Positions 1-41,210 are shown, numbered from the stretch's first letter. The stretch is 64,000 nt of DNA from Parcubacteria group bacterium GW2011_GWB1_42_6 (GCA_000997475.1 LCEC01000001.1:375-64374); one strand, 5' to 3'. Program-made: numbers and translations. Notes: a model not told the origin generated them from the sequence alone.

Positions 1-1
1 C

Positions 2-3068: not shown

Positions 3069-3117
3069 AATTCGCCTCATCCCCGGAGTTATTCGTAATT
3101 AACAGGAGAGAAGAAAC

Positions 3118-4572: not shown

Positions 4573-5578
4573 AAAAAATTCTGTTTTTATTATCGCCGAG
4601 GCGGGAATCAACCATAACGGTGATTTGGAAACCGCCGAGAAAATGGTTTTGGCCGCCAAAAAATGCGGCGCTGATGCCATAAAGTTTCAGTCATTGAAAG
4701 CCGAAGAGTTGATTATCGAAGAAGCGGGCAAGGCCGAACATATAAAAGGGAAGCAAAGCTTTTTCGAGATGATAAAAAGCTGGGAACTTTCCGAGAATGA
4801 TTATAAAAAGCTGGCTGATTTTGCCAAGAAAGAAGGAATAATTTTTTTCGCTTCGGTTTTCGGAAAGCAATCGCTTAATATTATGAAAAAAGCAGGAATG
4901 CCGCTTTATAAAATCGCTTCTTGCGATCTGAATAATCATTTTTTGCTTAAAGAAGTCGCTAAAACCAGAAAGCCGGTGATTATTTCCACGGGCATGGGCG
5001 ATATTAAAGAAATAAAAGAGGCGGTTAAAATTTTGGAAAAAGGGTCAAAAAAAATAGGCATTTTGCATTGCGTTTCTTTGTATCCGCCCGAGGCCCAAGA
5101 ATTGAATTTGCAGAGAATTCAATTGTTGGAAAAAATTTTTCCAAAATACGTTATTGGCTATTCGGATCACACCCTGGATATTTTGGCGCCCGCGGCGGCT
5201 GTCGCGCTGGGAGCGAATATAATCGAAAAGCATTTTACCTTGGATAAAAATATGCCCGGTCCCGATCAGCCAAGTTCCGCCGATCCCGCGGAATTTAAGA
5301 AAATGATTGAACAAATCAGATTTCTGGAAAAGGCGATTAACCGAGCCGAGAAAAACATTTTGCCCGGAAAACGCGAAAGCGAGATGAGGAAAATTTTTCG
5401 CCGAAGCTTGGTGGCCAACGAAGAGATTGCAGGGGGTTCTATAATTACGGCGGCCAAGCTTGGAATAAAAAGACCGGGAACAGGCATTCCTGCTTCACAA
5501 ATTGAGAAGGTAATCGGCAAAAAAGCCAAAAGAAATTTAGAAAAAAACACAATTTTGAAATTTGGCGATTTAATTTAG
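4565..5578 (+). CDS. NeuB-family nonulosonic acid synthase, copy 2
   Basis: VFIIAEAGINHNGDLETAEKMVLAAKKCGADAIKFQ motif and a C-terminal SAF-like domain; overlaps the upstream stop by 8 nt (translational coupling). Confidence 0.8.
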   Translation: MFKKNSVFIIAEAGINHNGDLETAEKMVLAAKKCGADAIKFQSLKAEELIIEEAGKAEHIKGKQSFFEMIKSWELSENDYKKLADFAKKEGIIFFASVFGKQSLNIMKKAGMPLYKIASCDLNNHFLLKEVAKTRKPVIISTGMGDIKEIKEAVKILEKGSKKIGILHCVSLYPPEAQELNLQRIQLLEKIFPKYVIGYSDHTLDILAPAAAVALGANIIEKHFTLDKNMPGPDQPSSADPAEFKKMIEQIRFLEKAINRAEKNILPGKRESEMRKIFRRSLVANEEIAGGSIITAAKLGIKRPGTGIPASQIEKVIGKKAKRNLEKNTILKFGDLI

Positions 5579-5579
5579 C

Positions 5580-6554
5580 ATGCAAATCGACGCGATTGGG
5601 AAAGTGAACAAAGATAATTATAAGCTGTTTCGGGACGGCAGTCTTTCGGGTTACGAAATTTATTTGGCCTCGGAAGACGATTTTGTTTTTTTGCCGGAGA
5701 TGTTGAAAGCTCTCAATATTGTTTCGGCGCATCAGCCCGGCCGGGGATTTAACTTGTGCCAAGAAGGAGAAATTGGTTGTTGGTCTTTTCAGACAATGGA
5801 AAAAATGCTGGCTGTTCTTAAGTCATGCGGCTACAAAGGGATCATAGTTATTCACGGCAATAATTTTGACGAATCGTCGCAAAATAGAGACGAATGCATG
5901 AAATTGCTGGCTGGGCGGCTGGATAAACTTAATAAAATTTCCGGCAAAATAAGAATCAGTCTGGAAACCGATGTTTTATTTTTTAATTTAATCGGGGCAA
6001 AAAGAGCTTTGCTCGCTTTGCCGGAAAATTTTAAGTTATTGACGAGTTTTATGAAATCTCCGCTTTTAATGACACTTGACTTCGAGCATATCTGGATAAC
6101 GTCGTTTTTTGCGGGATTTATCAAAGAACTGCCGGAATTTTATAAAGAATTCGATTTGATGGGCGATTCGGAAAAAGAGCTTGTCAAAAAGTCTTGGTTG
6201 AGCTATACCAAAGAGAAACTGAACGAGGCAGATCGGATAGTCGGGGAATCTCTAAAAAGATATTCAGAGACGAAAATTCCCATAATTAATTTTCATATCA
6301 ACGGCACGAATCCCGAAAAATATTGGTTCGATGAGAAAACTTTTTTGCCGCTTGAAGGCGAGCATCTTTGTTTGGGAGAGCCAGATGATAAATTGGATTA
6401 CGGTTTGATCGGCGAATATTTGCCAAGATTAACCCAGGAAGATTCGGCTAATCTTGTCATGGAAATCTGGCCTCGCGGAGCTTCCGATCGGGAATATTTT
6501 GAAAAATCTCTTGAATCGGCCGGATATCTTGAGAAAAAACTATGCCAAGCCTAA
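5580..6554 (+). CDS. Hypothetical protein, possibly a TIM-barrel sugar isomerase/epimerase-like
   Basis: 324-aa ORF within the cluster; weak resemblance only (IVVIHGNNF.., ISLETD). Confidence 0.3.
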   Translation: MQIDAIGKVNKDNYKLFRDGSLSGYEIYLASEDDFVFLPEMLKALNIVSAHQPGRGFNLCQEGEIGCWSFQTMEKMLAVLKSCGYKGIIVIHGNNFDESSQNRDECMKLLAGRLDKLNKISGKIRISLETDVLFFNLIGAKRALLALPENFKLLTSFMKSPLLMTLDFEHIWITSFFAGFIKELPEFYKEFDLMGDSEKELVKKSWLSYTKEKLNEADRIVGESLKRYSETKIPIINFHINGTNPEKYWFDEKTFLPLEGEHLCLGEPDDKLDYGLIGEYLPRLTQEDSANLVMEIWPRGASDREYFEKSLESAGYLEKKLCQA

Positions 6555-7168
6555 AACGTAAAAAAATAATAATAATTGGAGCAAGCGAACATGGAAAAAT
6601 CGCTCTTAACATTCTTCGTTATCAGAAAAACCTCGAGTTTGCCGGTTTTTTGGACGATAATAAAATGGCGGACAAAGAAGTAATCGGAAAGGTTTTTGAC
6701 TGGCCTAAATACGCCAAATATTTTTTTCATTTGGCTATTGGCGATAATTCGATTCGCGAAAAATTCTTTAAGATTTTAAATAAAGGCAATTGCCGTTTTA
6801 TTAATTTAATTCATCCCAAAGCTTTTATTGAAAAAGACGTTGTTTTGGGAGAAAGTGTTTTTGCGGGCGCGAACGCGTATATTAATATTGGCTCCAGAAT
6901 CGGCTCCGGAACAATCATAAATAATGGTTGCAATGTGGATCACCATAATATTATAGGTGATTTTTGCCATCTGGCCCCGGGAGTGATTACCGGCGGCGGA
7001 GTCAAAATCGCCGCCGGCGTTTTTGTCGGCCTTAACAGTGCGATTCGCGACCACATTAAAATAGGCGAAAACAGCTTTATCGGCATGGGGAGCGTAATAA
7101 CGAAAAATATTGAGAAAAATCTTTTAGTTTATAATAGACTGGAAATGAAAATCAAGAAACTTTCATGA
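6542..7168 (+). CDS. Hexapeptide-repeat sugar N-acetyltransferase (NeuD/PglD/LegH-like)
   Basis: N-terminal Rossmann-like IIIIGASEHGK, then left-handed beta-helix hexapeptide repeats (GANAYINIGSRIGSGTIINNGCNVDHH..). Confidence 0.75.
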   Translation: MPSLKRKKIIIIGASEHGKIALNILRYQKNLEFAGFLDDNKMADKEVIGKVFDWPKYAKYFFHLAIGDNSIREKFFKILNKGNCRFINLIHPKAFIEKDVVLGESVFAGANAYINIGSRIGSGTIINNGCNVDHHNIIGDFCHLAPGVITGGGVKIAAGVFVGLNSAIRDHIKIGENSFIGMGSVITKNIEKNLLVYNRLEMKIKKLS

Positions 7169-7186
7169 ACGATAAATAAAAAACCC

Positions 7187-7867
7187 ATGAAAAATATTTG
7201 CATTATTCCCGCCCGGGGCGGATCAAAAAGAATTCCCAAGAAGAATATTATTGATTTTCACGGCAAGCCGCTTATCGCCCACACCATTGAGGCGGCTGTC
7301 AATTCCAAGCTTTTCGGCAAGCATATTTATATCAGTTCGGATTTGGATGAAATTTTGGACGTGGCCGACAATTATTCTCAAGTTCAAAAACTCAAGCGCC
7401 CGGATGAAATTTCCGGGGATCGCGCGTCGCTCGAAGACGCCACTTTGCATCTGCTCGAATCGGTTGGAAAAGATTTTGATTATCTTTGCATGCTGATGCC
7501 CAGCTGTCCTTTGCGCAACGCGGAAGACGTCAAAAAGTCGTATAAAATTTTATTGGAGAAAAAAGGCGATTTTCTTATGAGTGTTATTGATTATTATTGG
7601 CTTTATCCTTTTTGGGCCATGCGGGAGAAAAAAGAAAACATTAAAATGTTTTTTGGCAAAAAATATTTGATTGATTCCAAAAAATTACCCAAGAATATTT
7701 ATTGCCCGTCGGGAGCAGTCCGCTGGGTCAGGGTGGAAAATTTTAAAAAAGAAAGAAAATACTATGGAAAAAATATCTTGAAATACGAGATACCTTTTGA
7801 GCGGGGAGCGGACATAGACAGTTTCGAAGATTTAGAACTGGCCAAAAAATTATACAAACTTTTATGA
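7187..7867 (+). CDS. CMP-nonulosonic acid synthetase (acylneuraminate cytidylyltransferase NeuA/LegF-like), copy 1
   Basis: ICIIPARGGSKRIPKKNI..GKPLIAHTIEAA motif of the CTP_transf_3 family. Confidence 0.8.
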   Translation: MKNICIIPARGGSKRIPKKNIIDFHGKPLIAHTIEAAVNSKLFGKHIYISSDLDEILDVADNYSQVQKLKRPDEISGDRASLEDATLHLLESVGKDFDYLCMLMPSCPLRNAEDVKKSYKILLEKKGDFLMSVIDYYWLYPFWAMREKKENIKMFFGKKYLIDSKKLPKNIYCPSGAVRWVRVENFKKERKYYGKNILKYEIPFERGADIDSFEDLELAKKLYKLL

Positions 7868-8985
7868 AAACGTATTCGATCGCCAAACCTCATATTGGCG
7901 AAAAAGAAATCAAAGCGGTTATCGAAGTTTTAAAAAGCGGCTCTTTGAGCCTGGGGCCGTATTATAAAAAATTTGAGGAAAGTTTCGCAAAAAAAATCGG
8001 CGTGAAATTCGCTTGCGCCGTTTCCAGCGGCACGGCGGGCTTGCATTTGGCAATGATCGCGGCGGGCGTCAGAGAGGGCGATGAGATAATTACTTCCCCC
8101 TTTTCTTTTATCGCTTCAGCTAATTGTATTTTATATGTTGGAGCCAGACCGGTTTTTGTTGATATTGATCCGGCCACTTGCAACATTGATCCCGAAAAGA
8201 TAGAAGAAAAAATCACCAAAAAAACCAAGGCGATTTTAGTCGCGCATATTTTCGGGCAAACCGCCGATATGGATCCGATCAGAGCTTTGGCGAAAAAATA
8301 CGATTTGAAAATAATTGAAGACGCTTGCGAATCTATTTTAGCCGAGTATAAAGGAAAGAAAGCCGGAACATTCGGGGAATCGGCCGTTTTCGCTTTTTAT
8401 CCCAACAAGCAGATGACGACGGGCGAAGGAGGAATGCTTGTGACGGATCAGGAAAAAATTTATAAAATGGCTTGCAGTTTGCGGAACCAGGGACGGTCGG
8501 AAAATATGCAATGGCTTGACCACCGACTTTTGGGATATAATTACCGGATGGATGAAATGAGCGCGGCATTGGGATTGATTCAGCTTCAAAAGATTGATTG
8601 GCTGATCGAGGAGCGCCGGAAAGTCGCCAAGCTCTATGAAAAACATCTTTTCGGACACAATGATCTGTTGCGGTTGCCGGTTGCCGTCGAAGGCAATACG
8701 CATACTTGGTTTGTTTACGCAGTCAAAATAAAAAACAAAAAGACGAACAGGAATGAAGTAATCGAAAAAATGAAAAATCGCGGCATAAGCGCAAAGCCTT
8801 ATCTTCCCTCAATTCATCTTTTTAAATTCTACCGGGAAAAATTTGGTTTTAAAAACGGCGATTTTCCGGTATCGGAAGAAATCAGCCGTTATTCCCTGGC
8901 TTTGCCTCTTTACATCGGGCTTAAAGAAAAGGACATAAAATACATTTCCGGTGAACTGGCCGGAATTTTAAAAAAAATCAAATGA
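7864..8985 (+). CDS. DegT/DnrJ/EryC1/StrS-family PLP-dependent sugar aminotransferase (LegC/PseC/PglE-like)
   Basis: 373 aa with a typical fold-type I aminotransferase pattern; start overlaps the upstream stop (ATGA). Confidence 0.85.
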   Translation: MKTYSIAKPHIGEKEIKAVIEVLKSGSLSLGPYYKKFEESFAKKIGVKFACAVSSGTAGLHLAMIAAGVREGDEIITSPFSFIASANCILYVGARPVFVDIDPATCNIDPEKIEEKITKKTKAILVAHIFGQTADMDPIRALAKKYDLKIIEDACESILAEYKGKKAGTFGESAVFAFYPNKQMTTGEGGMLVTDQEKIYKMACSLRNQGRSENMQWLDHRLLGYNYRMDEMSAALGLIQLQKIDWLIEERRKVAKLYEKHLFGHNDLLRLPVAVEGNTHTWFVYAVKIKNKKTNRNEVIEKMKNRGISAKPYLPSIHLFKFYREKFGFKNGDFPVSEEISRYSLALPLYIGLKEKDIKYISGELAGILKKIK

Positions 8986-9980
8986 CTCCGAATATATTCA
9001 AAAATAAAATAATTCTTGTGACGGGCGGAACCGGTTCAATCGGGTCTAAAATAGTGGAACGCCTCTTGGATCTTGAACCGCGCCAAATCCGGGTGCTTTC
9101 CAGGGATGAAAGCAAGCAATACGATCTGATTGAAAAATACGGCCACCCGAATAGTTTGAGAATGTTCATCGGCGACATCAGGGATCGGGAAAGATTGGAT
9201 TTGGCTTTTAAGGGTGTGGATATCGTTTTTCATGCCGCCGCTTTGAAGCATGTTCCTTTTTGCGAGTATAACCCCTTTGAGGCGGTAAAAACCAATATCG
9301 TCGGATCGCAGAATGTGATAGAAGCGGCTTTAAGGCATAATGTTTGGCGGGTGATCGGCATTTCAACGGACAAGGCGGCCAATCCCGTCAACATTTTAGG
9401 AACTTCAAAACTGATGATGGAAAAGCTTTTTATTAACGCGAACAATTATGTCGGGTCGGCTTCCACCAGATTTTCTTGCGTCAGATTCGGCAATGTCGCT
9501 TGGGCGAGGGGATCGGTTTTCCCTCTCTGGCAAAACCAGGTGAAAAAACATAAAAATATCGATGTAACCGACGGAGAAATGACCAGATTTTTAATGTCCA
9601 CCGTGGATGCGTGCGAACTTGTTTTGGATGCAACCAAATTGGCCAAGGGCGGAGAAATTTTTATTTTAAAAATGCCTTCCATAAAATTATTGGATTTGGC
9701 GGAATTGTTCATAAATAAGTATCATCCCCGGGAAAACATAAAAATCAAATTAATCGGTTTGAGACCCGGAGAAAAAAAACACGAAGATTTGCTTGATGCC
9801 AATCTGGAAAACGCCGAGATTCATGAGGGCAAAAAGATGTTTATAATCGTTCCGCAGATGGAAATTTACGGCTGGAAAGGAAAAAAAGCGGTTTATGCCG
9901 GTTTCAAGAAGATTTCAAAACAAGAAAAGTATTCTTCCGAGGATCGGATTAACAAAGAAAAAATAAAAGATATTATCTAA
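8982..9980 (+). CDS. UDP-N-acetylglucosamine 4,6-dehydratase (PseB/LegB/CapD-like short-chain dehydrogenase)
   Basis: IILVTGGTGSIGSKIV Rossmann motif and Polysacc_synt_2-like organisation. Confidence 0.8.
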   Translation: MTPNIFKNKIILVTGGTGSIGSKIVERLLDLEPRQIRVLSRDESKQYDLIEKYGHPNSLRMFIGDIRDRERLDLAFKGVDIVFHAAALKHVPFCEYNPFEAVKTNIVGSQNVIEAALRHNVWRVIGISTDKAANPVNILGTSKLMMEKLFINANNYVGSASTRFSCVRFGNVAWARGSVFPLWQNQVKKHKNIDVTDGEMTRFLMSTVDACELVLDATKLAKGGEIFILKMPSIKLLDLAELFINKYHPRENIKIKLIGLRPGEKKHEDLLDANLENAEIHEGKKMFIIVPQMEIYGWKGKKAVYAGFKKISKQEKYSSEDRINKEKIKDII

Positions 9981-9986
9981 AAAGCG

Positions 9987-11015
9987 ATGGAAATTTTTAT
10001 GACAAAAAAGTTTTTCAGCGAAAATGAAATCAGGCCCGAGAAATTCAAATCTCGAATGGAAAAGGTCAAGTCGCGGGACATAAAATATCTTTTCAGCAAA
10101 AAAAATCGGTTCGTCAAAGTCAATTGTCCGGCGTGCGGAAGGAATAATTTTAAAAAAGCTTTCAAGAAATACGGTTTCACTTTTGATTCATGCGGCGATT
10201 GCGGCACCGTCTTTATGAATCCGAGAGCCACGCCGGAAATATTGGACGATTTTTATTCCCAATCCGCGGTTTACGCGTATTGGAACAAAACAGTCTATCC
10301 GGCTTCGGAAGAATTGAGAAGAGAAAAAATCGTTAAGCCCAGGGTAAAAAGAATTCTCGAAATTTGCGATAAATTCAAGATTCCAAAAAAATGTTTGGTT
10401 GAAGCGGGGGCGGGGTTCGGAACTTTCTGCGACGAGGTTAAAAAGACTGGAGAATTCCAGAGAGTCGTAGCCATTGAGCCTTCGGCAACGGCGAAATCAT
10501 GCCGCCAGAAGGGGATAGAAACCATAGAAGATTTCATTGAAAATATAAAAACCTTGAAATTCGCTCCAAATGTCGTGGCTTCTTTTGAAGTTATAGAACA
10601 TCTTTTTTCTCCGGAAAATTTTTTAACGGGCTGCAAACGGCTAATGTCAAAAGAATCCATCATCGCGGTCAGTTGCCCCAATTACAATGGTTTTGACATT
10701 TTGACCTTGGGACTTGATTCGGAAAGCATAGATCACGAGCATATTAATCTTTTTAATCCGGATTCTCTGTCAAAGCTTTTCAGCCGCTGCGGTTTTGAAG
10801 TTTTGGAATGTTTTACTCCGGGCGAAATAGACGCCGATATCGTGAGAAATAAAATAATTTCCGGCGAATTTGAAATAAAGGACAAGCCGTTTTTAAAACT
10901 TTTATTGATTGACGAGTGGGACGAAATGGGGGCAAAATTTCAAAGTTTTCTCCAAAATAACAATCTTTCTTCCAATATGTGGCTGGTAGCCAAAAATAAG
11001 CAGTCAGCAATTTGA
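9987..11015 (+). CDS. SAM-dependent methyltransferase with N-terminal Cys4 zinc ribbon, paralog 1
   Basis: CPACG..(22)..CGDCG zinc ribbon, then class I MTase motif EAGAGFGTF; probable start at MTKKF (9999). Confidence 0.6.
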   Translation: MEIFMTKKFFSENEIRPEKFKSRMEKVKSRDIKYLFSKKNRFVKVNCPACGRNNFKKAFKKYGFTFDSCGDCGTVFMNPRATPEILDDFYSQSAVYAYWNKTVYPASEELRREKIVKPRVKRILEICDKFKIPKKCLVEAGAGFGTFCDEVKKTGEFQRVVAIEPSATAKSCRQKGIETIEDFIENIKTLKFAPNVVASFEVIEHLFSPENFLTGCKRLMSKESIIAVSCPNYNGFDILTLGLDSESIDHEHINLFNPDSLSKLFSRCGFEVLECFTPGEIDADIVRNKIISGEFEIKDKPFLKLLLIDEWDEMGAKFQSFLQNNNLSSNMWLVAKNKQSAI

Positions 11016-11016
11016 T

Positions 11017-11634
11017 ATGGGCGACAAGCTTTGCATTTTAGATTATGGTTCGGGGAACGTGGGGTCTGTTTTTAATATGTTCTCGACAATAATGGACAGA
11101 GTGGTTGTCTCTAATCGGCCGCCCGATTTGATTTCCTCAACTCATATAATATTGCCGGGCGTGGGCGCTTTTGGCTCTGCCATGGAGAAAATCAAAAAAA
11201 CTATTCCTTTGGACGTTTTGGAAGAAGAAGTTTTGCGAAAAGGCAAACCTTTTTTGGGAATATGCGTGGGTATGCAAGTATTGGCCGACAAAGGTTTTGA
11301 ATTTGGCGAATGCAAGGGATTGGGCTGGATTTCGGGAACGGTTGAAAAAATGGAAAGCGGAGATTTTTCCCTGCCGCACGTGGGCTGGAACAATATTGAA
11401 GTATCGAGGCAAACGAAATTATTTGAAGGCCTTTCCGATAATCAGGATTTTTATTTCGTCCATAGTTATGTTTTCAAGGAAAAAAATTCCAATGACGCGG
11501 CGGCCAAAACGGATTATGGCGAAAAGTTTACTTCCGTTGTCGCGAGAGACAATATTTTCGGTGTTCAATTTCATCCGGAAAAAAGCCAAAAAGCCGGCCG
11601 GATTATTTTAAAAAATTTTCTCGATATAAAATGA
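11017..11634 (+). CDS. HisH-like glutamine amidotransferase (WbuY-like)
   Basis: Class I GATase motifs ILDYGSGNVGSV, GVGAFG, HVGWN, QFHPEKS. Confidence 0.8.
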   Translation: MGDKLCILDYGSGNVGSVFNMFSTIMDRVVVSNRPPDLISSTHIILPGVGAFGSAMEKIKKTIPLDVLEEEVLRKGKPFLGICVGMQVLADKGFEFGECKGLGWISGTVEKMESGDFSLPHVGWNNIEVSRQTKLFEGLSDNQDFYFVHSYVFKEKNSNDAAAKTDYGEKFTSVVARDNIFGVQFHPEKSQKAGRIILKNFLDIK

Positions 11635-12437
11635 AAAAGAAACGCCTCATCCCCGTTCTTCTTTTAAAAAACGGCTGGCTCGTGCAAAGCAGGGAATTTA
11701 AATTTTACAGGAATTTGGGGAATCCGGTTGACGCGGTAAAAAGGCTAAACGAATGGGTTTCCGACGAACTGATTTATTTGAACATATCCAAGGAAGAAGT
11801 GTATGATATAAGAAGAGACGATCAAAATTATCCCAATCGTTGTTCGTTTGAAGAAATTATAGCGGATGTTTCTAAAGCGACTTTTATGCCAATGACGGTG
11901 GGCGGACGAATTGGAAACTTAAACAATATTGAAAAATTATTGTCCCTTGGAGCGGATAAAGTTTCCATTAATTCAAAAGCATTGGAAGACAAAAAATTTA
12001 TTGAGCAATCGGCCAGAGAATTCGGTTCCCAATGCGTGGTTGTTTCGATCGACGCCAAAATTATTAATGGAAAATATATTGTGATGTCGCAGGGAGGATC
12101 GAAAGAGACTCTTTACAATCCGGTTGAGTGGGCAAAAACCGTTGAATCGCTCGGAGCCGGAGAGATTCTTTTAAATTCGATTGATCGCGATGGCATGAAA
12201 AATGGCTACGATATTGATTTATTGGCTGCCGTTTCGGATGCTGTAAAAATTCCGGTAATTGCCTGCGGGGGCGTTGGCGAATGGGCGCATTTTGCCGAAG
12301 CGCTCCAAAAAACGAAGGTTGACGCGGTGGCCGCGGCGAATATTTTTCATTATATCGATCAGAGCGTTTATTTGGCCAAAAAATATCTTTATGAAGAGGG
12401 TTGCAATGTCAGACCTTGCGATCTGATGCCGGCCTGA
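11631..12437 (+). CDS. HisF-like cyclase subunit (WbuZ-like)
   Basis: IPVLLLKNG.. N-terminus and ..ACGGVG.. C-terminal phosphate-binding motif of HisF/HisA (beta/alpha)8 enzymes; overlaps the hisH-like stop. Confidence 0.8.
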   Translation: MKKKRLIPVLLLKNGWLVQSREFKFYRNLGNPVDAVKRLNEWVSDELIYLNISKEEVYDIRRDDQNYPNRCSFEEIIADVSKATFMPMTVGGRIGNLNNIEKLLSLGADKVSINSKALEDKKFIEQSAREFGSQCVVVSIDAKIINGKYIVMSQGGSKETLYNPVEWAKTVESLGAGEILLNSIDRDGMKNGYDIDLLAAVSDAVKIPVIACGGVGEWAHFAEALQKTKVDAVAAANIFHYIDQSVYLAKKYLYEEGCNVRPCDLMPA

Positions 12438-13471
12438 AAATTATTTTTGGCGGTCAATCCTATTTTCGGGATCCTCTTATGAAAGAAGAAGAAATCAGAC
12501 CCGGCAATCTAATGGCTGAAAATAGCAAACTGCACGCAAAAGATGTGGCCGAAATTTTGATTCGCCGAAAAGAATTTAAAAAAATAGCCTGTCCCGCTTG
12601 CGAATCAAAGAAGCAAAAATTCGCGTTTAAGAAAGATGGATTCAATTTCGCGGTTTGCTTGAAATGCGGCACTCTATTTATCAATCCAAGGCCTTCCCGC
12701 GAATTGTTGGCGGATTTTTATAAAAATTCGCGCAGCATCCGCCATTGGAGCGATAAAATTTTTCCGGCCAGCGAAAAACAAAGAAGATCGCAAATTTTTT
12801 ATCCGAGAGCGAAACGGATTATCGGTCTTTGCAAAAAATTTAAAATTAAAAACGGAGTTCTGGCGGATATCGGCGCCGGTTTCGGCACTTTCTGCCAAGA
12901 AGTCAAGAAATTAAATTTTTTTAAAGAAATTATTGCCATAGAGCCTTCAAAAAAATTAGCGCAGGTTTGCCGGCAAAAAGGTATTTTTGTGATTGAAGAA
13001 ATGGCCGAAAACGTAAATTTGGAAAAAATTGACGTGGTGACCAGTTTTGAATTGCTGGAACATCTTTTTTGGCCAAAAAACTTTCTTTGCGCTTTGTCCA
13101 AAAATATGTCCAAAAATTCCCTGTTTATTCTCACGACCCCAAACATAAGAGGATTTGATTTGCTTACTCTGGGAGAGCTTTCCAATAATATCAAGGGGCC
13201 GAACCATTTGAATTATTTTCATCCCGGTTCAATCAGCCTTCTATTGGAAGGTTGCGGATTTGAAGTGGTTGAGGTTCTGACGCCCGGAAAACTTGACGCG
13301 GAACTGGTAAGGAAAAAAATTTTACAGGACGATCCGGGCATCTTTTTAAATCGTCCTTTTATTCGGCACATCTTGGTGGACAAATGGAAATCCGTAGGAA
13401 ATTCTTTTCAGCATTTTTTGGCAGATAATAATTTATCTTCCCATTTATGGGTCGTGGCGAAGAAAAAATAA
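12401..13471 (+). CDS. SAM-dependent methyltransferase with N-terminal Cys4 zinc ribbon, paralog 2
   Basis: CPACE..CLKCG ribbon and DIGAGFGTF MTase motif; the same architecture as 9987-11015; probable start MKEEE at 12479. Confidence 0.6.
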   Translation: MQCQTLRSDAGLKIIFGGQSYFRDPLMKEEEIRPGNLMAENSKLHAKDVAEILIRRKEFKKIACPACESKKQKFAFKKDGFNFAVCLKCGTLFINPRPSRELLADFYKNSRSIRHWSDKIFPASEKQRRSQIFYPRAKRIIGLCKKFKIKNGVLADIGAGFGTFCQEVKKLNFFKEIIAIEPSKKLAQVCRQKGIFVIEEMAENVNLEKIDVVTSFELLEHLFWPKNFLCALSKNMSKNSLFILTTPNIRGFDLLTLGELSNNIKGPNHLNYFHPGSISLLLEGCGFEVVEVLTPGKLDAELVRKKILQDDPGIFLNRPFIRHILVDKWKSVGNSFQHFLADNNLSSHLWVVAKKK

Positions 13472-13475
13472 AAAT

Positions 13476-14690
13476 ATGAAATATTGCGAAAGGTGCGTTT
13501 ATCCAAAAGTCTCGGTAAATCTTGAATTGGACAGCGAGGGAGTTTGTTCAAGTTGCCGAACTTTTGAAAAATTCAAAGCAACCCCTTCCCAAATATGGGA
13601 AAAAAAGAAAAAAAAGTTTGAAGAAATTATCGCCAATTCCAAAAAAAGCGGCGTTTCCAATTATGACTGCGTTATTCCCGTTAGCGGCGGCAAAGACAGT
13701 TATTTTCAAGCGCATGTGATAGTTTCCGAATTTGGCTTGAAACCCTTGCTTGTAACTTATCATGGCAATAATTACCTGCCCGAAGGAGATTATAACCGCG
13801 ACAGGATGCGCCAAGTATTTGATGCCGATCATCTTGTTTTCGGTCCAAGCGTCGAGGTCTTGAAAAAACTCAACAGAATTGGTTTCAAGAAAATGGGAGA
13901 TATGAATTGGCACGCTCATTGCGGCATTGTCACTTATCCGATAATCGCCGCGGTTAAATTCAATATTCCGCTTATTATTTGGGGAGAGGTCGCGTGGGAT
14001 ATTTCGGGAATGTTTGATCCGGACGATTTTGTGGAGTTTAGCGCGCGGGTGCGTCACGAACATTATGTGAGAGGCTATGAATGGAGCGATATGGTAAATA
14101 ATGATCCCAAAGACAGATTAACCGAAAAAGATATGCTTTGGGCCAAATATCCTTCCGATGAAGAAATCTTGAAGGTTGGCGCGAGGGGATTATATATAGG
14201 AAATTTTTTCCGATGGGATCCCAATAATCATGTAAAATTGGTTCAGAAAAAATACGGGTGGAAGGCTAAAGAAGGACAGTTTGAAAGAACTTATCGCAAA
14301 TTTTCCAATTTGGATGACAGATACGAAAATGGCGCGCACGATCTGATGAAATTCATAAAATTCGGCTATGGCCGAGCTTCCGATCACGCCTCCAAAGATA
14401 TCCGCGACGGTTATATGACTCGCGAGCAAGGAGTAGCAATGGTAAAAAAATATGATCATGTGATTTCAAAAGATCTTTATTATTGGCTTGAGTATGTCGG
14501 TATGAGCGAGAAAGAATTTTGGCGCATAGCCGATACTTTCAGGGATCCTCGGGTTTGGCGGATTGAGAGCGGCCAATGGGTGAAAGATAATATCTGGGGC
14601 GGTTCATCAGCTTATGGGCCGGTTCATCTGAATGTTAAACAAATTAAAGCTTATAAAGAACGCCAGAAAAAGATAAATCGGATAATTTAA
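13476..14690 (+). CDS. N-acetyl-sugar amidotransferase (WbuX/PseA/WbpG family, PP-loop ATPase)
   Basis: N-terminal zinc-binding CERC..CSSC followed by the PP-loop SGGKDS; 404 aa. Confidence 0.75.
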   Translation: MKYCERCVYPKVSVNLELDSEGVCSSCRTFEKFKATPSQIWEKKKKKFEEIIANSKKSGVSNYDCVIPVSGGKDSYFQAHVIVSEFGLKPLLVTYHGNNYLPEGDYNRDRMRQVFDADHLVFGPSVEVLKKLNRIGFKKMGDMNWHAHCGIVTYPIIAAVKFNIPLIIWGEVAWDISGMFDPDDFVEFSARVRHEHYVRGYEWSDMVNNDPKDRLTEKDMLWAKYPSDEEILKVGARGLYIGNFFRWDPNNHVKLVQKKYGWKAKEGQFERTYRKFSNLDDRYENGAHDLMKFIKFGYGRASDHASKDIRDGYMTREQGVAMVKKYDHVISKDLYYWLEYVGMSEKEFWRIADTFRDPRVWRIESGQWVKDNIWGGSSAYGPVHLNVKQIKAYKERQKKINRII

Positions 14691-14700
14691 GATTAAAAAA

Positions 14701-16230
14701 ATGAAAATCTCTCTCATTGTGAGCGCCGATATCACCGACAGCTACGGCTTCAACGTTTTGGCGGCGCAGCTTAAAAAATTCAAAGACAGAAACGTCGAGG
14801 TTGGGCAGTTTTATATTTTTTACGATTTCAACAAATCCTATCCGCCCGAAGCGATTGAGGATTTGGTTTCTTTGTGCCGAGGGAGCGATCTTATCGGCAT
14901 TTCGCTGCTTTCCAGCGCTTTCAAAAATTCCGTCGCGATTACCAAAGCTCTGAAAGAGAAAATAAATTGTCCCGTAATCTGGGGCGGCAAACATCCCACG
15001 GCTGATCCGGAAGAATGCGTCAGGTATGCCGATATGATTTGTTTGAGCGAAGGAGAAGACGCGCTTTGCGAACTGGTGGAGAGAATGCTGGAAAACAAAT
15101 CTTACGATGATATCCAAAATCTTTGGGTGAGAAAAGGCGATTGGATAATCAAGAATCCGTTAAGGCCGGTGGAGGAAAATTTGGATCGTTTTCTGCCGCC
15201 CGATTATTCTCTGGAAAACAAATTTGTTTTGGACAAAAAAACTTTGCGCATTCGGCCGATCGAAGATCGCGATCTGGAGAATATGCGTTTGTGGTATCCC
15301 ACGATGATGACGCGGGGATGCCCCAATTGCTGCACTTTTTGCACCAACAGCACCGATCTGCGTTTGCGAAAAATGCGTTCGCGCGGGCTGGATAATGTTT
15401 TTGGCGAAATCAAAATTTTTTTGAAAAAATATCCGGACACAAAAAGGATTTTTTTCCGCGACGATTGCATCAGCGCGATGCCTCTTGATTTCATCAAAGA
15501 ATTCTGCCGGCGGTGGAAAGAGGAAATCAATTTGCCTTGCAGCTGTTCGGGAGTGATCGCGACCAGCCCGGATTTTGAGGAAAAAATAAAATTGCTCACT
15601 GATGCCGGATTCACCGGTCTGAAAATGGGAATACAATCGGGTTGCGAAAGAGTGCGCCGGTTTGTTTTTGCCAGAGTCGGCGAAACCGATGAAGTGATTA
15701 TGAAGGCGGCGAGAATTCTGCGAAAATGGGCCCACGGCAAGAATTGTTATTATATGATCACCGATAATCCTTATGAATCGGAAGAAGAATTGGTTCAATC
15801 AATAAGATTCACCAGCCGCGTGCCGCGCCCTTTTTCTTTATCCCTTTATTCTCTCAATTTCTATCCCGGCACCGCGATTTACAATCGGGCCATAAACGGC
15901 GGGATTATAAAAGACAAAGAGCAGGCGCTTCAGGAATCAACCATGGATTTTAAAGACACTTATTTGGGCCGGGTTTTCCTTTTGCTCCGTTTTTTCGAAC
16001 TTCCGCCTTTCTTTGTGAATTTTTTGACGAACAAGAAAATTTATTCCAATAAAATTTACCGAAAATCATTCAATCTGTTTTTTTGGTTTCTTTGCCGGAG
16101 TAAATTGCCCACCCGATGGATAAGGGCGCCCAGGCTCAAAGATCCCGACACTTGGGAAATTATCAGATGGATTGTCTGGCAGGGCATTGAACGCGCAAGC
16201 CGCTGCTATCACCGGCGCTTTGTGAAATAA
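14701..16230 (+). CDS. B12-binding domain radical SAM protein
   Basis: N-terminal cobalamin-binding-like Rossmann segment (LIGISLLSS..CPVIWGGKHPT), then the CxxxCxxC cluster in MMTRGCPNCCTFC. Confidence 0.75.
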   Translation: MKISLIVSADITDSYGFNVLAAQLKKFKDRNVEVGQFYIFYDFNKSYPPEAIEDLVSLCRGSDLIGISLLSSAFKNSVAITKALKEKINCPVIWGGKHPTADPEECVRYADMICLSEGEDALCELVERMLENKSYDDIQNLWVRKGDWIIKNPLRPVEENLDRFLPPDYSLENKFVLDKKTLRIRPIEDRDLENMRLWYPTMMTRGCPNCCTFCTNSTDLRLRKMRSRGLDNVFGEIKIFLKKYPDTKRIFFRDDCISAMPLDFIKEFCRRWKEEINLPCSCSGVIATSPDFEEKIKLLTDAGFTGLKMGIQSGCERVRRFVFARVGETDEVIMKAARILRKWAHGKNCYYMITDNPYESEEELVQSIRFTSRVPRPFSLSLYSLNFYPGTAIYNRAINGGIIKDKEQALQESTMDFKDTYLGRVFLLLRFFELPPFFVNFLTNKKIYSNKIYRKSFNLFFWFLCRSKLPTRWIRAPRLKDPDTWEIIRWIVWQGIERASRCYHRRFVK

Positions 16231-16287
16231 GCATATTTTTTACAAAAAAGAGATCGGGCGAAATTAATTCGTAATTGGCTAGCAAAT

Positions 16288-17247
16288 ATGAAAATTCTAA
16301 ACGCAATCGGCAAAGAATTCAGCCTTTCGGCCAAACCTATTCTTGAAAAAGCGGGAGAAGTCGATTATTTGAATTTGGCGCAGGATGAATTTGAGGAAAA
16401 AATTGTCTCTTACGACGCTGCTGTTTTGGGATTAGGCTTGAATTTGAACGAAGAAGTTTTGCGGAAAGCCAAGAATCTGAAAGTGATTGCCACAGCCACC
16501 ACGGGTTTGGATCATATTGATTTAAAAACAGCCCAAGAAAAAGGAATCGAAGTTTTGAGCTTGAAAGGCGAAGAAGAATTTTTAAAAACCATCGCGGGAA
16601 CGGCCGAACTGGCTTTTGGATTGCTTATCGATCTTTCCAGAATGGTTTCAGCCGGCTTTGAATCGGTAAAAAAAGGCGAGTGGGATCGCGAAAAATTCAG
16701 GGGACATAATCTGCGAGGCAAAACTTTGGGAATTTTGGGTTTGGGCCGGCTTGGGCAAATGATGGCCAAATACGGTTTGGCTTTCGGTATGCGCGCAATC
16801 GCTTGCGATCCTTATGTTAAAAAGGAATCTTTCAGCGATTCCGGCTGCCGGCGCGTTGATTTTGAAACTTTGCTCAAAGAGAGCGATGCCGTTTCAATCC
16901 ACGTCCATTTGAGCGAAAAAACGGAAGGTCTTTTTTCAAAAGAATCTTTTGAAAAAATGAAAGACGGGGCGCTTTTAATAAACACCTCAAGGGGGAAAAT
17001 AGTAAATGAGGAAGATTTAATCCAATTTTTAAAAAACGGCAAGATTGGGGGATACGCGGCTGATGTATTGACAAATGAGCTTAAATTTGGTAAAAAGTTT
17101 GAAAGCGATCCGTTGGTTGAATGCGCCAAAAACGGCCAAAATGTCATAATCACTCCGCATATCGGCGGAATGACCTATGAATCGAGGGAAGCCACGGATA
17201 TGTTTATTTCTCAAAAATTGCTTGATTATGTCCAAAATAACGAATAA
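16288..17247 (+). CDS. D-isomer-specific 2-hydroxyacid dehydrogenase (NAD-binding)
   Basis: GKTLGILGLGRLGQ dinucleotide-binding motif and the catalytic-domain pattern of the D-2-hydroxyacid dehydrogenase family. Confidence 0.75.
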   Translation: MKILNAIGKEFSLSAKPILEKAGEVDYLNLAQDEFEEKIVSYDAAVLGLGLNLNEEVLRKAKNLKVIATATTGLDHIDLKTAQEKGIEVLSLKGEEEFLKTIAGTAELAFGLLIDLSRMVSAGFESVKKGEWDREKFRGHNLRGKTLGILGLGRLGQMMAKYGLAFGMRAIACDPYVKKESFSDSGCRRVDFETLLKESDAVSIHVHLSEKTEGLFSKESFEKMKDGALLINTSRGKIVNEEDLIQFLKNGKIGGYAADVLTNELKFGKKFESDPLVECAKNGQNVIITPHIGGMTYESREATDMFISQKLLDYVQNNE

Positions 17248-17962
17248 AAAGAAAAAAGTTTTGGGAATTATTCCGGCCAGAGGCGGCTCCAAAGGAATTC
17301 CCGGCAAAAACATAAAAAATTTTTGCGGCAAGCCCCTGCTCGCCCATATTTTTGAGGCGGCCAAGAATTCCGGAGTGTTTGACCGGATAATCGTTTCCAC
17401 GGATGACGAAAAAATCGCTCAAGTTGCCAAAAAATGCGGCGCCGAAGTCCCGTTCATTCGTCCGGCCCGACTCGCTCAAGACAAAACTCCCACTTTGCCC
17501 GTGATTCAACACGCCGTAAATTATTTAAAAGAAAATGAAAATTATAACCCCGATTATGTGATGATTTTGCAGCCCACCGTTCCCTTGACGCAGTCCAGGC
17601 ATTTGAAAGAGGCGGTTGAACTTATTTTGAATAAAAAAGCGGATACGGTTTTGAGCGTTGCCGAAATTCCCGAGAGTTTTAATCCTTGCAACGCGATGGT
17701 TCTGGATGAGGGATTCTTAAAGCTTTATAACGGCTTGCCGGTCCGCCAAAGAATTCCCCGCCGCCAAGACAGGCCGCAAACTTTTTGGAGCATCGGTTGC
17801 ATTTATCTTTTTAGAACCGATCTGATTTTTGATCAGAAAGAACCTTCTTTTTACGGCAATAAAATTTTGCCATATATTTTGGAAAAAGAATGCATTTGCG
17901 ACATCAATACGCCGGAAGATTGGGATATCGCCGCAAAGTCTTATAAAAAATTGAGAAAATAG
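17228..17962 (+). CDS. CMP-nonulosonic acid synthetase (acylneuraminate cytidylyltransferase), copy 2
   Basis: VLGIIPARGGSKGIPGKNI..GKPLLAHIFEAA; the ORF-track entry begins at 17177 but the likely start is MSKIT at 17228. Confidence 0.75.
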   Translation: MSKITNKKKKVLGIIPARGGSKGIPGKNIKNFCGKPLLAHIFEAAKNSGVFDRIIVSTDDEKIAQVAKKCGAEVPFIRPARLAQDKTPTLPVIQHAVNYLKENENYNPDYVMILQPTVPLTQSRHLKEAVELILNKKADTVLSVAEIPESFNPCNAMVLDEGFLKLYNGLPVRQRIPRRQDRPQTFWSIGCIYLFRTDLIFDQKEPSFYGNKILPYILEKECICDINTPEDWDIAAKSYKKLRK

Positions 17963-23343: not shown

Positions 23344-23760
23344 ATGAAAATAAATTTCAAAGCGAAGGATTTGGAATTGAACGAAGAGATAAAAAATCTC
23401 GTTGAAAAAAAGCTGGAGACTTTGCGAAGATTTTTTCAAGCGAGCGATCCGGAAGCCGTGCTTGCCGAAGTTGAACTTTCGCGGACCACTCTTCATCATC
23501 AAAACGCTCAAGATCTTTTTCGGGCGGAAATAAATCTAACCATCGCCGGAAAAATGTTTCGGGCGGAATCGGAGCAATCCGATCTCCGCACGGCGCTTGA
23601 AGAAACCCGCGATGATTTGGAAAGAGAGATAAATAAATTTAAAACCAAAAGGGAGACTGTTTTTATTCGAGGCGCGCGCAGCATAAAAAAGGCTTTGAGC
23701 CTTTCGCCCTTAGCGCGTTTCAATAGAAAGTCGCAAAATAAAGAAGATGGTACCGAATAA
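23344..23760 (+). CDS. hpf: Ribosome hibernation promoting factor (HPF/RaiA/YfiA family)
   Basis: [31 protein letters not shown].. matches the HPF N-terminal domain. Confidence 0.75.
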
Positions 23761-24304: not shown

Positions 24305-24309
24305 GTGTC

Positions 24310-24392
24310 ACCCTACGGAATTACGGATTGGTACGGATATTACGGATTTGATTTATCTGTATAATCCGTATATATCTGTAATTCAGTAGGGT
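24310..24392. repeat. TACGGAT direct/inverted heptamer array (copy 1)
   Basis: ccctacggaattacggattggtacggatattacggatt..taatccgtatat..gtagggtt. Confidence 0.6.
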
Positions 24393-24452
24393 TATGAAAC
24401 CTCGCCATAATTAACAAGAGTTAATTAACTCAAGAAAACCCGGCGGAGGGCC

Positions 24453-25694: not shown

Positions 25695-25695
25695 A

Positions 25696-41186: not shown

Positions 41187-41210
41187 TCGCATATTTCGCA
41201 TCATAATTTT

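What the first reader, a model, noticed from the sequence alone, without database searches (positions are those of the whole stretch)
9987..14690. Acetamidino-forming WbuX/WbuY/WbuZ-like trio flanked by two paralogous zinc-ribbon methyltransferases
The trio comprises a HisH-like glutamine amidotransferase (11017), a HisF-like cyclase (11631) and a PP-loop N-acetyl-sugar amidotransferase (13476). In O-antigen and legionaminic-acid loci, this known trio converts an N-acetyl group into an N-acetimidoyl group. Here it is bracketed by two paralogous SAM methyltransferases that each carry an N-terminal Cys4 ribbon (9987, 12401). That arrangement points to an N-methylacetimidoyl modification, as in some Legionella and Campylobacter sugars. 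An alternative is a distinct methylation of the sugar.
Basis: partly seen in the sequence, partly recalled or inferred. Interest (0 to 1): 0.65.

Follow-up and report, generated by a model that had tools for sequence, protein, structure and literature searches.

The report
Acetamidino sugar module with two methyltransferases
A groundwater Parcubacteria genome carries, inside a large nine-carbon-sugar gene cluster, the known three-enzyme set that converts an N-acetyl group into an acetamidino group, plus two zinc-ribbon methyltransferases, one from an uncharacterised family that sits next to such amidotransferases in many phyla and is the best candidate for methylating the new amidine.

Summary
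The genes are real and match the description. The order is MT1 (9987-11015), HisH-like glutaminase, HisF-like barrel, MT2 (true start 12479), then a WbuX-type PP-loop amidotransferase. They sit in one tightly packed nonulosonic-acid operon of a Parcubacteria (CPR) genome.

The trio is not histidine biosynthesis. WbuX passes its curated model and has both signature motifs. The HisF-like protein has lost cyclase Asp11. No his genes are nearby.

MT1 belongs to a widespread, unnamed Cys4-ribbon methyltransferase family. In 71 of 80 genomes from many bacterial phyla and DPANN archaea, that family lies within 1.5 kb of a WbuX-type gene. The reverse does not hold: only 3 of 33 loci sampled by WbuX carry it. 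This asymmetry fits an enzyme that acts on the trio's product, so an N-methylacetimidoyl group is plausible for MT1. It is not shown.

MT2 is not a simple duplicate. It belongs to a subclass with a different active-site signature (D249K, E251N). Relatives of that subclass mostly lie in nonulosonic-acid clusters without the trio, so a separate methylation is more likely.

The closest solved structures are TDP-sugar C3-methyltransferases (TcaB9). I could not obtain PtmH or Legionella ORF8 sequences for comparison. I class it as a new variant of a known kind, of moderate interest.

The parts
9987..11015 (+). MT1: Cys4 zinc-ribbon class I SAM methyltransferase of the Y-H-C-D-E-H signature type. 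This type is linked to WbuX-type genes across phyla.
   Evidence: Pfam Methyltransf_23. C47/C50/C69/C72. 100% identical to a Parcubacteria GW2011_GWB1_42_6 protein. Orthologs lie beside WbuX in 71 of 80 loci. AF2 model pLDDT 95, closest to TcaB9, KijD1 and MtmC.
11017..11634 (+). HisH/WbuY-like glutaminase subunit, the ammonia donor.
   Evidence: TIGR01855 232 bits, GATase 3.7e-20. Catalytic C83, H186 and E188 are present. Always paired with the HisF-like gene in related loci.
11631..12437 (+). HisF/WbuZ-like (beta/alpha)8 barrel, presumed to channel ammonia. Not an IGP cyclase.
   Evidence: The best NCBIfam match is WbuZ TIGR03572 at 266.6 bits, below its 299.7 cut-off. The hisF model scores 246, below its 294.55 cut-off. 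Cyclase Asp11 is replaced by Leu while Asp130 is kept. The same loss is seen in all but one of 71 HisF-like genes in related loci.
12479..13471 (+). MT2: paralogous Cys4 zinc-ribbon methyltransferase of a different subclass (signature I-H-T-K-N-H), inserted between HisF and WbuX.
   Evidence: 47% identity to MT1. C38/C41/C60/C63. It deviates at 14 of 99 highly conserved columns, including Y96I, C230T, D249K and E251N. It groups with the x-H-T-x-N-H class; the best match is P0350 at 54%. That class mostly occurs without the trio.
13476..14690 (+). WbuX-type N-acetyl sugar amidotransferase (PP-loop ATP pyrophosphatase).
   Evidence: TIGR03573 325.9 bits against a 203.2 cut-off. SGGKDS at residues 70-75 and the C4-x2-C7...G-x-C24-x2-C27 tetracysteine motif (motifs defined in PMC10607449). 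E 1e-37 to the solved Legionella enzyme 8WEX.
7864..9980 (+). Context: PseC/LegC-like aminotransferase (7864-8985) and PseB-like UDP-GlcNAc 4,6-dehydratase (8982-9980), directly upstream of MT1.
   Evidence: DegT 1.6e-124 and Polysacc_synt_2 1.5e-100. PseC scores 330.7 bits and PseB 342.2 bits, both below the equivalog cut-offs.
14701..17962 (+). Context: B12-binding radical SAM enzyme (14701-16230), D-2-hydroxyacid dehydrogenase (16288-17247) and a second CMP-sugar cytidylyltransferase (gene calls start near 17228; ends 17962), directly downstream of WbuX.
   Evidence: Pfam and NCBIfam. The same genes are called in sister contigs. These genes are rare in the 160 related loci.
2..7867 (+). Context: the upstream half of the same operon. 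It holds the remnant of a third zinc-ribbon methyltransferase (MT3), NeuB-like synthase 1, NeuC (split), a Capsule_synth-like protein, NeuB-like synthase 2, an unknown protein, a NeuD/PglD acetyltransferase and cytidylyltransferase 1.

Best explanation
This is the tailoring block of a nonulosonic-acid (pseudaminic/legionaminic-type) pathway in a Parcubacteria genome.

**The trio.** HisH-like glutaminase releases ammonia from glutamine. The HisF-like barrel has lost its cyclase aspartate and passes the ammonia on. The WbuX-type PP-loop enzyme activates the carbonyl of an N-acetyl group with ATP, so that ammonia replaces the oxygen and gives an acetamidino group. This mechanism is inferred from the families and is not shown here.

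**MT1.** It is the local ortholog of a widespread zinc-ribbon methyltransferase family that depends on the presence of a WbuX-type enzyme. It most likely uses SAM to methylate the newly made acetamidino group, giving an N-methylacetimidoyl sugar, on the nucleotide-activated sugar. Its two conserved carboxylates (D249, E251) next to the catalytic histidine could hold the cationic amidinium.

**MT2.** It is a member of a different subclass that lacks those carboxylates. It most likely adds a second, separate methyl group elsewhere on the sugar or on a precursor.
For: **Trio.**
- WbuX passes its curated cut-off and has both family motifs.
- It matches the solved Legionella amidotransferase 8WEX at E 1e-37.
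- The HisH triad is intact.
- HisF Asp11 is replaced by Leu, as in all but one of 71 HisF-like genes in the related loci, nearly all of them beside a WbuX-type gene.
- The window holds only housekeeping genes downstream and no his genes.
- The surrounding operon encodes NeuB, NeuC, NeuD, a dehydratase, an aminotransferase and cytidylyltransferases.

**MT1 and its link to the trio.**
- Sampling by the methyltransferase: 71 of 80 loci, from CPR, Cyanobacteria, Bacteroidota, Myxococcota, Acidobacteriota, Leptospira, DPANN archaea and others, have a WbuX-type gene within 1.5 kb. In 66 of 80, all three trio genes lie within 5 kb.
- The link holds across different gene orders and across divergent WbuX subtypes, including stand-alone PtmG-like arrangements such as L060.
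- Sampling by WbuX: only 3 of 33 evaluable loci have the family next to the trio, 2 have a distant relative in the same slot, and 28 have none.
- So the methyltransferase needs the trio, but the trio does not need the methyltransferase.
- A more distant subfamily in the same slot also keeps D-E-H.
- N-methylation of a 5-acetimidoyl group on legionaminic acid is a known modification in Legionella and Campylobacter (PMC3766260, PMC13306086).

**MT2 as a separate type.**
- Signature I-H-T-K-N-H, against Y-H-C-D-E-H in 249 of 370 superfamily members and in E251 of all 80 locus methyltransferases, D249 of 79.
- Its nearest relatives belong to the N-H class.
- That class lies next to NeuB, PseB/PseC, GNAT, cytidylyltransferase or deacetylase/formyltransferase genes. 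It has no trio in 6 of 7 independent contexts.
Against: - No biochemical data exist for any member of either methyltransferase type.
- The closest solved structures are C-methyltransferases (TcaB9, KijD1, MtmC). Three of the TcaB9 residues that its depositors mutated (H181, E224, H225) are conserved in MT1. Carbon methylation therefore cannot be excluded.
- A few family members lie in polysaccharide clusters with no trio in the available flanks (L003, L038, L053).
- One N-H class member (L180) does sit beside a stand-alone WbuX-like gene, so the split between the two types is not absolute.
- Three of the six trio-free N-H contexts are contigs under 3 kb, which could not show a trio even if one were present.
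- Kinship with the genetically proven N-methyltransferases PtmH and Legionella ORF8 could not be tested. No Campylobacter or Legionella proteins appeared among 240 listed homologs.
- Which N-acetyl group is converted (N5 or N7), and whether the sugar is Pse-like or Leg-like, are not resolved.
Confidence: 0.55

Rival explanations
1. Both methyltransferases act on the acetamidino group, giving a doubly methylated group (N,N-dimethylacetimidoyl, or one methyl on each nitrogen) as in Legionella pneumophila serogroup 1.
For: - Both genes are embedded in the trio with gaps of 1 to 41 bases.
- Legionella makes both N,N-dimethylacetimidoyl and acetimidoyl(N-methyl)amino forms (reference list of PMC3766260).
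- Other CPR loci also combine a family methyltransferase with a second, distant zinc-ribbon methyltransferase around the trio (L017, L087).
- Fusions of this domain to a second methyltransferase domain exist (P0353, P0447).
- One N-H class member is adjacent to a WbuX-like gene.
Against: - MT2 lacks the two carboxylates that are 79-80 of 80 conserved in the trio-linked type.
- Its subclass is found without the trio in 6 of 7 contexts.
- None of the 80 loci sampled by the methyltransferase carries two copies of the family.
Confidence: 0.2
2. MT1-type enzymes methylate the sugar skeleton itself. This would be O-methylation of a hydroxyl on the CMP-sugar, or TcaB9-like C-methylation next to the 4-keto group of the UDP-sugar intermediate. 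The adjacency to WbuX would then only reflect a shared tailoring cassette.
For: - The H181, E224 and H225 equivalents are conserved.
- In the window MT1 directly follows the 4,6-dehydratase gene.
- Superfamily members sit between PseB and PseC in other loci (L182, L180).
- Methylated NulOAcAm species read as O-methyl have been reported in Magnetospirillum (bioRxiv 10.64898/2026.04.20.719630).
Against: - In 63 of 80 loci the gene follows WbuX directly and lies 5-8 kb from PseB/PseC.
- The link persists across different WbuX subtypes and gene orders. A cassette explanation does not predict the strong one-way dependence.
- The TcaB9 C-terminal and zinc-domain Pfam models do not match.
Confidence: 0.18
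3. MT2 is a decaying or non-catalytic duplicate of MT1.
For: It carries more substitutions at conserved columns than any of the 80 orthologs: 14 against a maximum of 11, including positions invariant in 80 of 80.
Against: - It is an intact 330-aa ORF, identical in at least 24 contigs.
- It keeps the zinc cysteines, the SAM-binding glycines and both histidines.
- Its substitutions match a recurrent subclass rather than random decay.
- It is not a recent copy of MT1: it is 47% identical, while MT1 is 63% identical to its orthologs in other genera.
Confidence: 0.04
4. The HisH/HisF pair are genuine histidine-biosynthesis enzymes that merely sit near sugar genes.
For: The HisH model TIGR01855 is passed. 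HisF-like scores against solved HisF proteins are high, E 1e-49 to 1e-61.
Against: - Cyclase Asp11 is replaced by Leu.
- The hisF model is not passed, and WbuZ is the best-scoring model.
- There are no other his genes in 64 kb.
- The pair travels with WbuX in about 140 loci.
Confidence: 0.01

Closest known systems
WbuX/WbuY/WbuZ (E. coli O145), WbpG-HisH-HisF (P. aeruginosa O5), AglX/Y/Z (Methanococcus maripaludis) and the solved Legionella N-acetyl sugar amidotransferase 8WEX
   Same: The same three-protein set. The PP-loop amidotransferase has SGGxDS and the tetracysteine zinc motif. It is joined by a HisH-like glutaminase and a HisF-like barrel, inside a surface-glycan cluster.
   Different: - The set sits in a nonulosonic-acid operon of a CPR bacterium.
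- The gene order is interrupted by a methyltransferase between the HisF-like gene and WbuX.
- The HisF-like protein scores below the curated WbuZ and AglZ cut-offs.
- 8WEX is longer (468 aa) and has an insertion that other members lack (PMC10607449).
PtmG-PtmH of Campylobacter (CMP-Leg5Am7Ac to CMP-Leg5AmNMe7Ac) and ORF8 (lpg0769) of Legionella pneumophila
   Same: An amidotransferase followed by a SAM methyltransferase in a nonulosonic-acid locus. The known product is an N-methylated acetimidoyl group (PMC3766260, PMC13306086, PMC13317340). In loci such as L060 the MT1-type gene follows a stand-alone PtmG-like gene at the end of a Leg-type cluster.
   Different: - Sequence relationship is unknown, because PtmH and ORF8 sequences could not be retrieved.
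- No Campylobacter or Legionella proteins appear among the listed homologs.
- From my own memory, unverified: PtmH is a much shorter protein without a zinc ribbon.
- PtmH orthologs are also proposed to methylate a glutamyl substituent that has no amidine (PMC13317340).
TcaB9 / KijD1 / MtmC TDP-sugar C3-methyltransferases
   Same: - An N-terminal Cys4 zinc module followed by a class I SAM domain.
- Equivalents of TcaB9 H181, E224 and H225 are conserved in MT1.
   Different: - Only 16-20% identity, with TM-score about 0.5.
- About 75 residues shorter.
- The Pfam models of the TcaB9 zinc and C-terminal domains do not match.
- TcaB9 Y222 corresponds to Asp in the MT1 type.
- The genomic partner is an amidotransferase, not a deoxysugar pathway.

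Membership tests
N-acetyl sugar amidotransferase (WbuX, TIGR03573 / NASAT) | Score above the curated cut-off of the family model | tested here: met
   325.9 bits against a 203.2 cut-off, covering profile positions 1-343 of 344.
N-acetyl sugar amidotransferase (WbuX, TIGR03573 / NASAT) | PP-loop SGGxDS | tested here: met
   SGGKDS at residues 70-75. Motif as defined in PMC10607449.
N-acetyl sugar amidotransferase (WbuX, TIGR03573 / NASAT) | Tetracysteine motif CxxC...[GN]xCxxC | tested here: met
   C4, C7, then G22-V-C24-S-S-C27.
N-acetyl sugar amidotransferase (WbuX, TIGR03573 / NASAT) | ATP-dependent conversion of N-acetyl to acetamidino | not testable with these tools
   Needs an enzyme assay or glycan analysis.
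WbuZ / AglZ (acetamidino-associated HisF paralog) | Score above the curated cut-off of TIGR03572 or NF038364 | tested here: not met
   TIGR03572 scores 266.6 against 299.7, and NF038364 scores 224.2 against 310. WbuZ is nevertheless the best-scoring model.
WbuZ / AglZ (acetamidino-associated HisF paralog) | Encoded with a HisH-like and a WbuX-like gene | tested here: met
   Overlaps HisH by 4 bases, with WbuX 1 kb downstream. The same association is seen in related loci.
Genuine imidazole glycerol phosphate synthase HisF | Both cyclase aspartates (Asp11 and Asp130 of Thermotoga HisF; their catalytic role is from established knowledge) | tested here: not met
   Leu at the Asp11 position; Asp130 is kept. 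The hisF model scores 246 against a 294.55 cut-off.
HisH-type class I glutaminase (WbuY) | Cys-His-Glu catalytic triad and the family model | tested here: met
   C83, H186 and E188. TIGR01855 scores 232.1 against 105.4. That model does not separate HisH from WbuY.
PtmH / Legionella ORF8 acetimidoyl N-methyltransferases | Sequence homology to Cj1325/6 or lpg0769 | not testable with these tools
Three homolog searches returned no named Campylobacter or Legionella protein.
PtmH / Legionella ORF8 acetimidoyl N-methyltransferases | Methyl group placed on the acetimidoyl nitrogen | not testable with these tools
   Needs MS/NMR of the product.
TcaB9-type NDP-sugar C3-methyltransferases | N-terminal Cys4 zinc module plus a class I SAM domain | tested here: met
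   [not shown]
TcaB9-type NDP-sugar C3-methyltransferases | Residues H181, Y222, E224 and H225 | tested here: inconclusive
   MT1 has H205, D249, E251 and H252, so three of four are kept. MT2 keeps only the two histidines.
TcaB9-type NDP-sugar C3-methyltransferases | Pfam zinc-binding and C-terminal domains of the family (Methyltransf_13 / Methyltransf_14; names recalled from memory) | tested here: not met
   No such Pfam hits at E <= 0.001 for MT1 or MT2. The proteins are about 75 residues shorter than TcaB9.

The most novel reading that the evidence does not exclude
The trio-linked (D-E-H) zinc-ribbon enzymes would not be N-methyltransferases. They would be TcaB9-style carbon methyltransferases that use the acidified alpha-carbon of the acetamidinium, turning acetamidino into propionamidino-type groups. 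Together with MT2 and the adjacent B12-radical-SAM enzyme, the cluster would then build a C-methylated ulosonic acid with more than nine carbons. Sugars of that kind were recently detected by mass spectrometry in Magnetospirillum, and their genes are unknown.
Probability: 0.1. Interest if true: 0.8.

Novelty: new variant of a known kind. Interest (0 to 1): 0.45.

Why it matters
Acetamidino groups and their N-methylated forms change the charge and the antigenicity of surface nonulosonic acids. Only two methyltransferases for this step are known genetically, in Campylobacter and Legionella, and the chemistry has been seen in very few organisms.

This work identifies an unnamed methyltransferase family. 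It has 320 cluster representatives at E <= 1e-30 and is present from CPR bacteria and DPANN archaea to cyanobacteria and Leptospira. It is tied to the amidotransferase by a strong one-way gene association. That gives a concrete, testable candidate for the step in most of microbial diversity.

It also shows that two related subclasses with different active-site signatures probably do different jobs. In addition, it documents an elaborate sialic-acid-like pathway in a small-genome Parcubacteria, whose surface glycans are unknown.

Tried and rejected
1. **Genuine histidine biosynthesis.** Rejected: Asp11 is lost, there are no his genes, and the pair is linked to WbuX.

2. **Retrieving PtmH or Legionella ORF8 for direct comparison.**
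   - Literature searches gave gene names only.
   - A homolog search with the gammaproteobacterial family member L060 returned no Legionella protein.
   - A search with the third methyltransferase, MT3, chosen because MT3-NeuB-NeuC resembles ptmH-neuB-neuC, returned only 137 proteins, mostly unnamed; the named ones are Parcubacteria/Patescibacteria.

3. **E. coli O-antigen clusters with known structures.** No DNA match using an Enterobacteriaceae copy of the module.

4. **Plasmid collection.** Only distant methyltransferases at 23-30% identity.

5. **AlphaFold-database fold search.** The library was not available.

6. **MT2 as a recent tandem duplicate.** Rejected by the tree and by identities.

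7. **Assembly artefact.** Rejected: at least 24 contigs carry the same order.

8. **Rfam and tRNA scans of the window.** Nothing found.

9. **A conserved fifth gene after the methyltransferase.** Only a PhyH-type dioxygenase in 11 of 80 loci, and it is absent from the window.

Full report
**What is in the sequence**

Five closely packed + strand ORFs occupy 9987-14690.
- 9987-11015 is a class I SAM methyltransferase, MT1 (Methyltransf_23, E 3e-16).
- 11017-11634 is a class I glutamine amidotransferase that passes the HisH model (232 bits against a 105 cut-off).
- 11631-12437 is a HisF-type barrel.
- 12401-13471 contains a second methyltransferase, MT2.
- 13476-14690 passes the curated N-acetyl sugar amidotransferase model: TIGR03573, 325.9 bits against 203.2.

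MT1 and MT2 are 47% identical over 330 residues, E 2e-107. Each has a CxxC...CxxC pair near the N-terminus.

The MT2 reading frame opens at a TTG at 12401, but homology starts at the ATG at 12479. Independent gene calls use that start.

The order is MT1-HisH-HisF-MT2-WbuX, with gaps of -4 to +41 bases. The same order is found in at least 24 contigs from separate assemblies.

MT1 is 100% identical to a protein of Parcubacteria group bacterium GW2011_GWB1_42_6. The window is therefore from a CPR bacterium.

**Context**

The block lies in the middle of an 18-kb co-directional operon for a nonulosonic acid.
- Upstream: two NeuB-type synthases, NeuC, a NeuD/PglD-type acetyltransferase, a cytidylyltransferase, a PseC/LegC-like aminotransferase and a PseB-like 4,6-dehydratase.
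- Downstream: a B12-binding radical SAM enzyme, a D-2-hydroxyacid dehydrogenase and a second cytidylyltransferase.

Further downstream come murB, polyamine genes, secA, secDF, efp, mnmA and alaS. There are no histidine-biosynthesis genes.

**The trio**

The WbuX-type protein has the PP-loop SGGKDS (residues 70-75) and the tetracysteine motif C4-x2-C7...G-x-C24-x2-C27. Both define the family in the structural paper on the Legionella enzyme. It matches that solved structure, 8WEX, at E 1e-37.

The glutaminase keeps Cys83, His186 and Glu188.

The HisF-like protein has Leu in place of the cyclase Asp11 and keeps Asp130. All but one of 71 HisF-like genes in the related loci show the same loss. It scores best against WbuZ but below the curated cut-offs of WbuZ, AglZ and hisF.

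The acetamidino-forming assignment stands on family membership. The chemistry itself is inferred.

**The MT1 family**

More than 1,900 proteins match MT1 at E <= 1e-10. Sources name them only as class I SAM-dependent methyltransferases. An exhaustive search of 50%-identity representatives gives 320 at E <= 1e-30. The family is highly conserved: mean column identity is 57-61%, and the four cysteines are invariant.

A scan of one genome per species found 366 relatives, and I examined the best 80 loci. They come from CPR, Cyanobacteria, Bacteroidota, Myxococcota, Desulfobacterota, Acidobacteriota, Verrucomicrobiota, Planctomycetota, Omnitrophota, Actinomycetota, Firmicutes, Proteobacteria, Leptospira and DPANN archaea.
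- In 71 of 80 a WbuX-type gene lies within 1.5 kb. In 63 it is immediately upstream on the same strand, giving HisH-HisF-WbuX-MT.
- In 66 of 80 all three trio genes lie within 5 kb.
- Most exceptions are at contig ends.

The closest relatives (Giovannonibacteria, 63% identity) have MT-HisH-HisF-WbuX. That is the window's order without MT2. None of the 80 loci has two copies of the family.

The reverse sample was drawn with a WbuX alignment from metagenomes (WbuX 63-77% identical). It gave 33 loci with enough flank on both sides. Three have the family next to the trio, two have a distant zinc-ribbon methyltransferase in the same slot, and 28 have neither.

So the methyltransferase almost never occurs without the amidotransferase, while the amidotransferase usually occurs without the methyltransferase. 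This is the pattern expected of an optional enzyme that works on the trio's product. It is the main support for the N-methylacetimidoyl reading, and it is indirect.

**What the methyltransferases resemble**

An AlphaFold model of MT1 is confident (pLDDT 95, pTM 0.91).
- Foldseek's best PDB matches are the TDP-sugar C3-methyltransferases KijD1, TcaB9 and MtmC (E about 2e-14, TM about 0.5).
- Sequence and profile searches of the PDB agree.

In the profile alignment, TcaB9 H181, Y222, E224 and H225 correspond to MT1 H205, D249, E251 and H252. These are the residues its depositors mutated, and the chain index is offset by 2.

The family therefore looks like a shortened relative of nucleotide-sugar methyltransferases that have a zinc module. 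This suggests a nucleotide-activated sugar as substrate. It leaves open whether nitrogen, oxygen or carbon is methylated.

The two carboxylates next to the histidine could bind a cationic amidinium. That is my inference, not a result.

**MT2 is a different type**

MT2 deviates from the consensus at 14 of 99 highly conserved columns, more than any of the 80 orthologs. The changes include Y96I, C230T, D249K and E251N, at positions conserved in 79-80 of 80.

Across 370 collected superfamily members, the six-position signature is Y-H-C-D-E-H in 249. MT2's I-H-T-K-N-H belongs to a recurrent x-H-T-x-N-H class, and its best match is P0350 at 54%.

I looked up seven independent genomic contexts for that class.
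- NeuB then MT.
- MT then GNAT.
- NeuB, then a GNAT-MT fusion, then a Capsule_synth-like gene.
- Cytidylyltransferase, MT, then a Capsule_synth-like gene.
- MT followed by formyltransferase and deacetylase genes and NeuB.
- PseB, MT, PseC.
- PseB, PseC, MT, a stand-alone WbuX-like gene, then PseF, PseG, PseH and PseI.

Only the last has any WbuX-type gene, and none has HisH or HisF. Three of the seven contigs are under 3 kb, so they say little about absence.

MT2 is also not a recent copy of MT1. In a neighbour-joining tree it sits on a long branch near DPANN sequences. It keeps the zinc cysteines, the SAM motif and both histidines.

The most economical reading is that MT2 performs a second, separate methylation and was inserted into the trio in this lineage. 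A second methylation of the amidine remains possible.

**Comparison with known systems**

The trio is a member of the WbuX/Y/Z, WbpG-HisH-HisF and AglX/Y/Z kind.

The pairing of an amidotransferase with a methyltransferase parallels PtmG-PtmH in Campylobacter, and the ORF8-dependent N-methylation of the 5-acetimidoyl group in Legionella (PMC3766260, PMC13306086, PMC13317340).

I could not obtain PtmH or ORF8 sequences. No Campylobacter or Legionella protein appeared among the listed homologs, even with a gammaproteobacterial query. Membership in that family is therefore untested and, on present evidence, unlikely to be close.

A recent preprint states that methyl-acetimidoyl has so far been found only on legionaminic acid. 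It also reports methylated NulOAcAm species and ten-carbon ulosonic acids in Magnetospirillum, with unknown genes (bioRxiv 10.64898/2026.04.20.719630). This keeps a carbon-methylation reading alive as the most novel option.

**Verdict**

- For MT1, the link to the amidine is real at the level of comparative genomics, but the atom methylated is unproven.
- MT2 probably does something else.

The finding is a new variant of a known kind. The trio is known. It is joined here to an uncharacterised, very widespread zinc-ribbon methyltransferase family and to a member of a sister subclass, in a CPR genome.

Interest is moderate.

Noticed in passing
window 2308-2309 (within 1819-3068): NeuC is split into two ORFs in this window. 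Sister contigs are otherwise base-for-base identical from window position 127 onward, but carry 34 extra bases here and encode an intact 427-aa NeuC. One other assembly shares the split. This is either population variation or a pseudogene.
   Followed up: partly
window 1-775; L081:2013-3026: A third Cys4-ribbon methyltransferase (MT3, 24% identical to MT1) lies directly upstream of NeuB1. It is intact (337 aa) in sister contigs. In the window its first 126 bases are replaced by unrelated sequence whose translation resembles an ABC-transporter permease, giving a chimeric 5' end. In one sister contig, IS200-type transposase fragments lie upstream. The MT3 family is small (137 proteins); most hits are unnamed and the few named ones are Parcubacteria/Patescibacteria.
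   Followed up: partly
window 14701-16230: A B12-binding radical SAM enzyme, far below the cut-off of every named subfamily, sits 10 bases after WbuX. Such enzymes often methylate unactivated carbons. A homolog appears in only 2 of 160 related loci (L053, L099).
   Followed up: partly
window 16288-17962: A phosphoglycerate-dehydrogenase-like D-2-hydroxyacid dehydrogenase and a second PseF-like cytidylyltransferase follow the radical SAM gene. Together with the two NeuB genes, this suggests that two activated sugars or an N-glyceroyl-type substituent are made. The mechanical ORF start at 17177 overlaps the upstream gene by 71 bases. Gene calls in sister contigs start about 51 bases later.
   Followed up: no
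L003, L012, L029, L031, L034, L036, L037, L039, L042, L046, L065; protein P0355: A PhyH-type Fe/2-oxoglutarate dioxygenase gene lies next to the MT1-type gene in 11 of 80 loci. In Nostocales it sits between WbuX and the methyltransferase. It also occurs fused to the methyltransferase in one protein. It is absent from the window.
   Followed up: partly
proteins P0379, P0353, P0447: Fusions of the zinc-ribbon methyltransferase domain occur with a PseH-like GNAT acetyltransferase, with a second class I methyltransferase domain, and with an FkbM-type methyltransferase.
   Followed up: partly
window 3118-4572: A 484-aa protein has only a weak Capsule_synth match. Relatives of it follow MT2-class methyltransferases in other loci (L174-L177). 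It may be the transferase or polymerase for the modified sugar.
   Followed up: no
window 23747-26763: Pyruvoyl-dependent arginine decarboxylase, a deoxyhypusine-synthase-like protein and an agmatinase-family protein lie side by side. This is a polyamine or homospermidine-type cluster in a small CPR genome.
   Followed up: no
window 33900-34370 and 41175-43043: An IS200-like Y1 transposase and a TraG/VirD4-like coupling protein with a treble-clef zinc finger lie among housekeeping genes.
   Followed up: no
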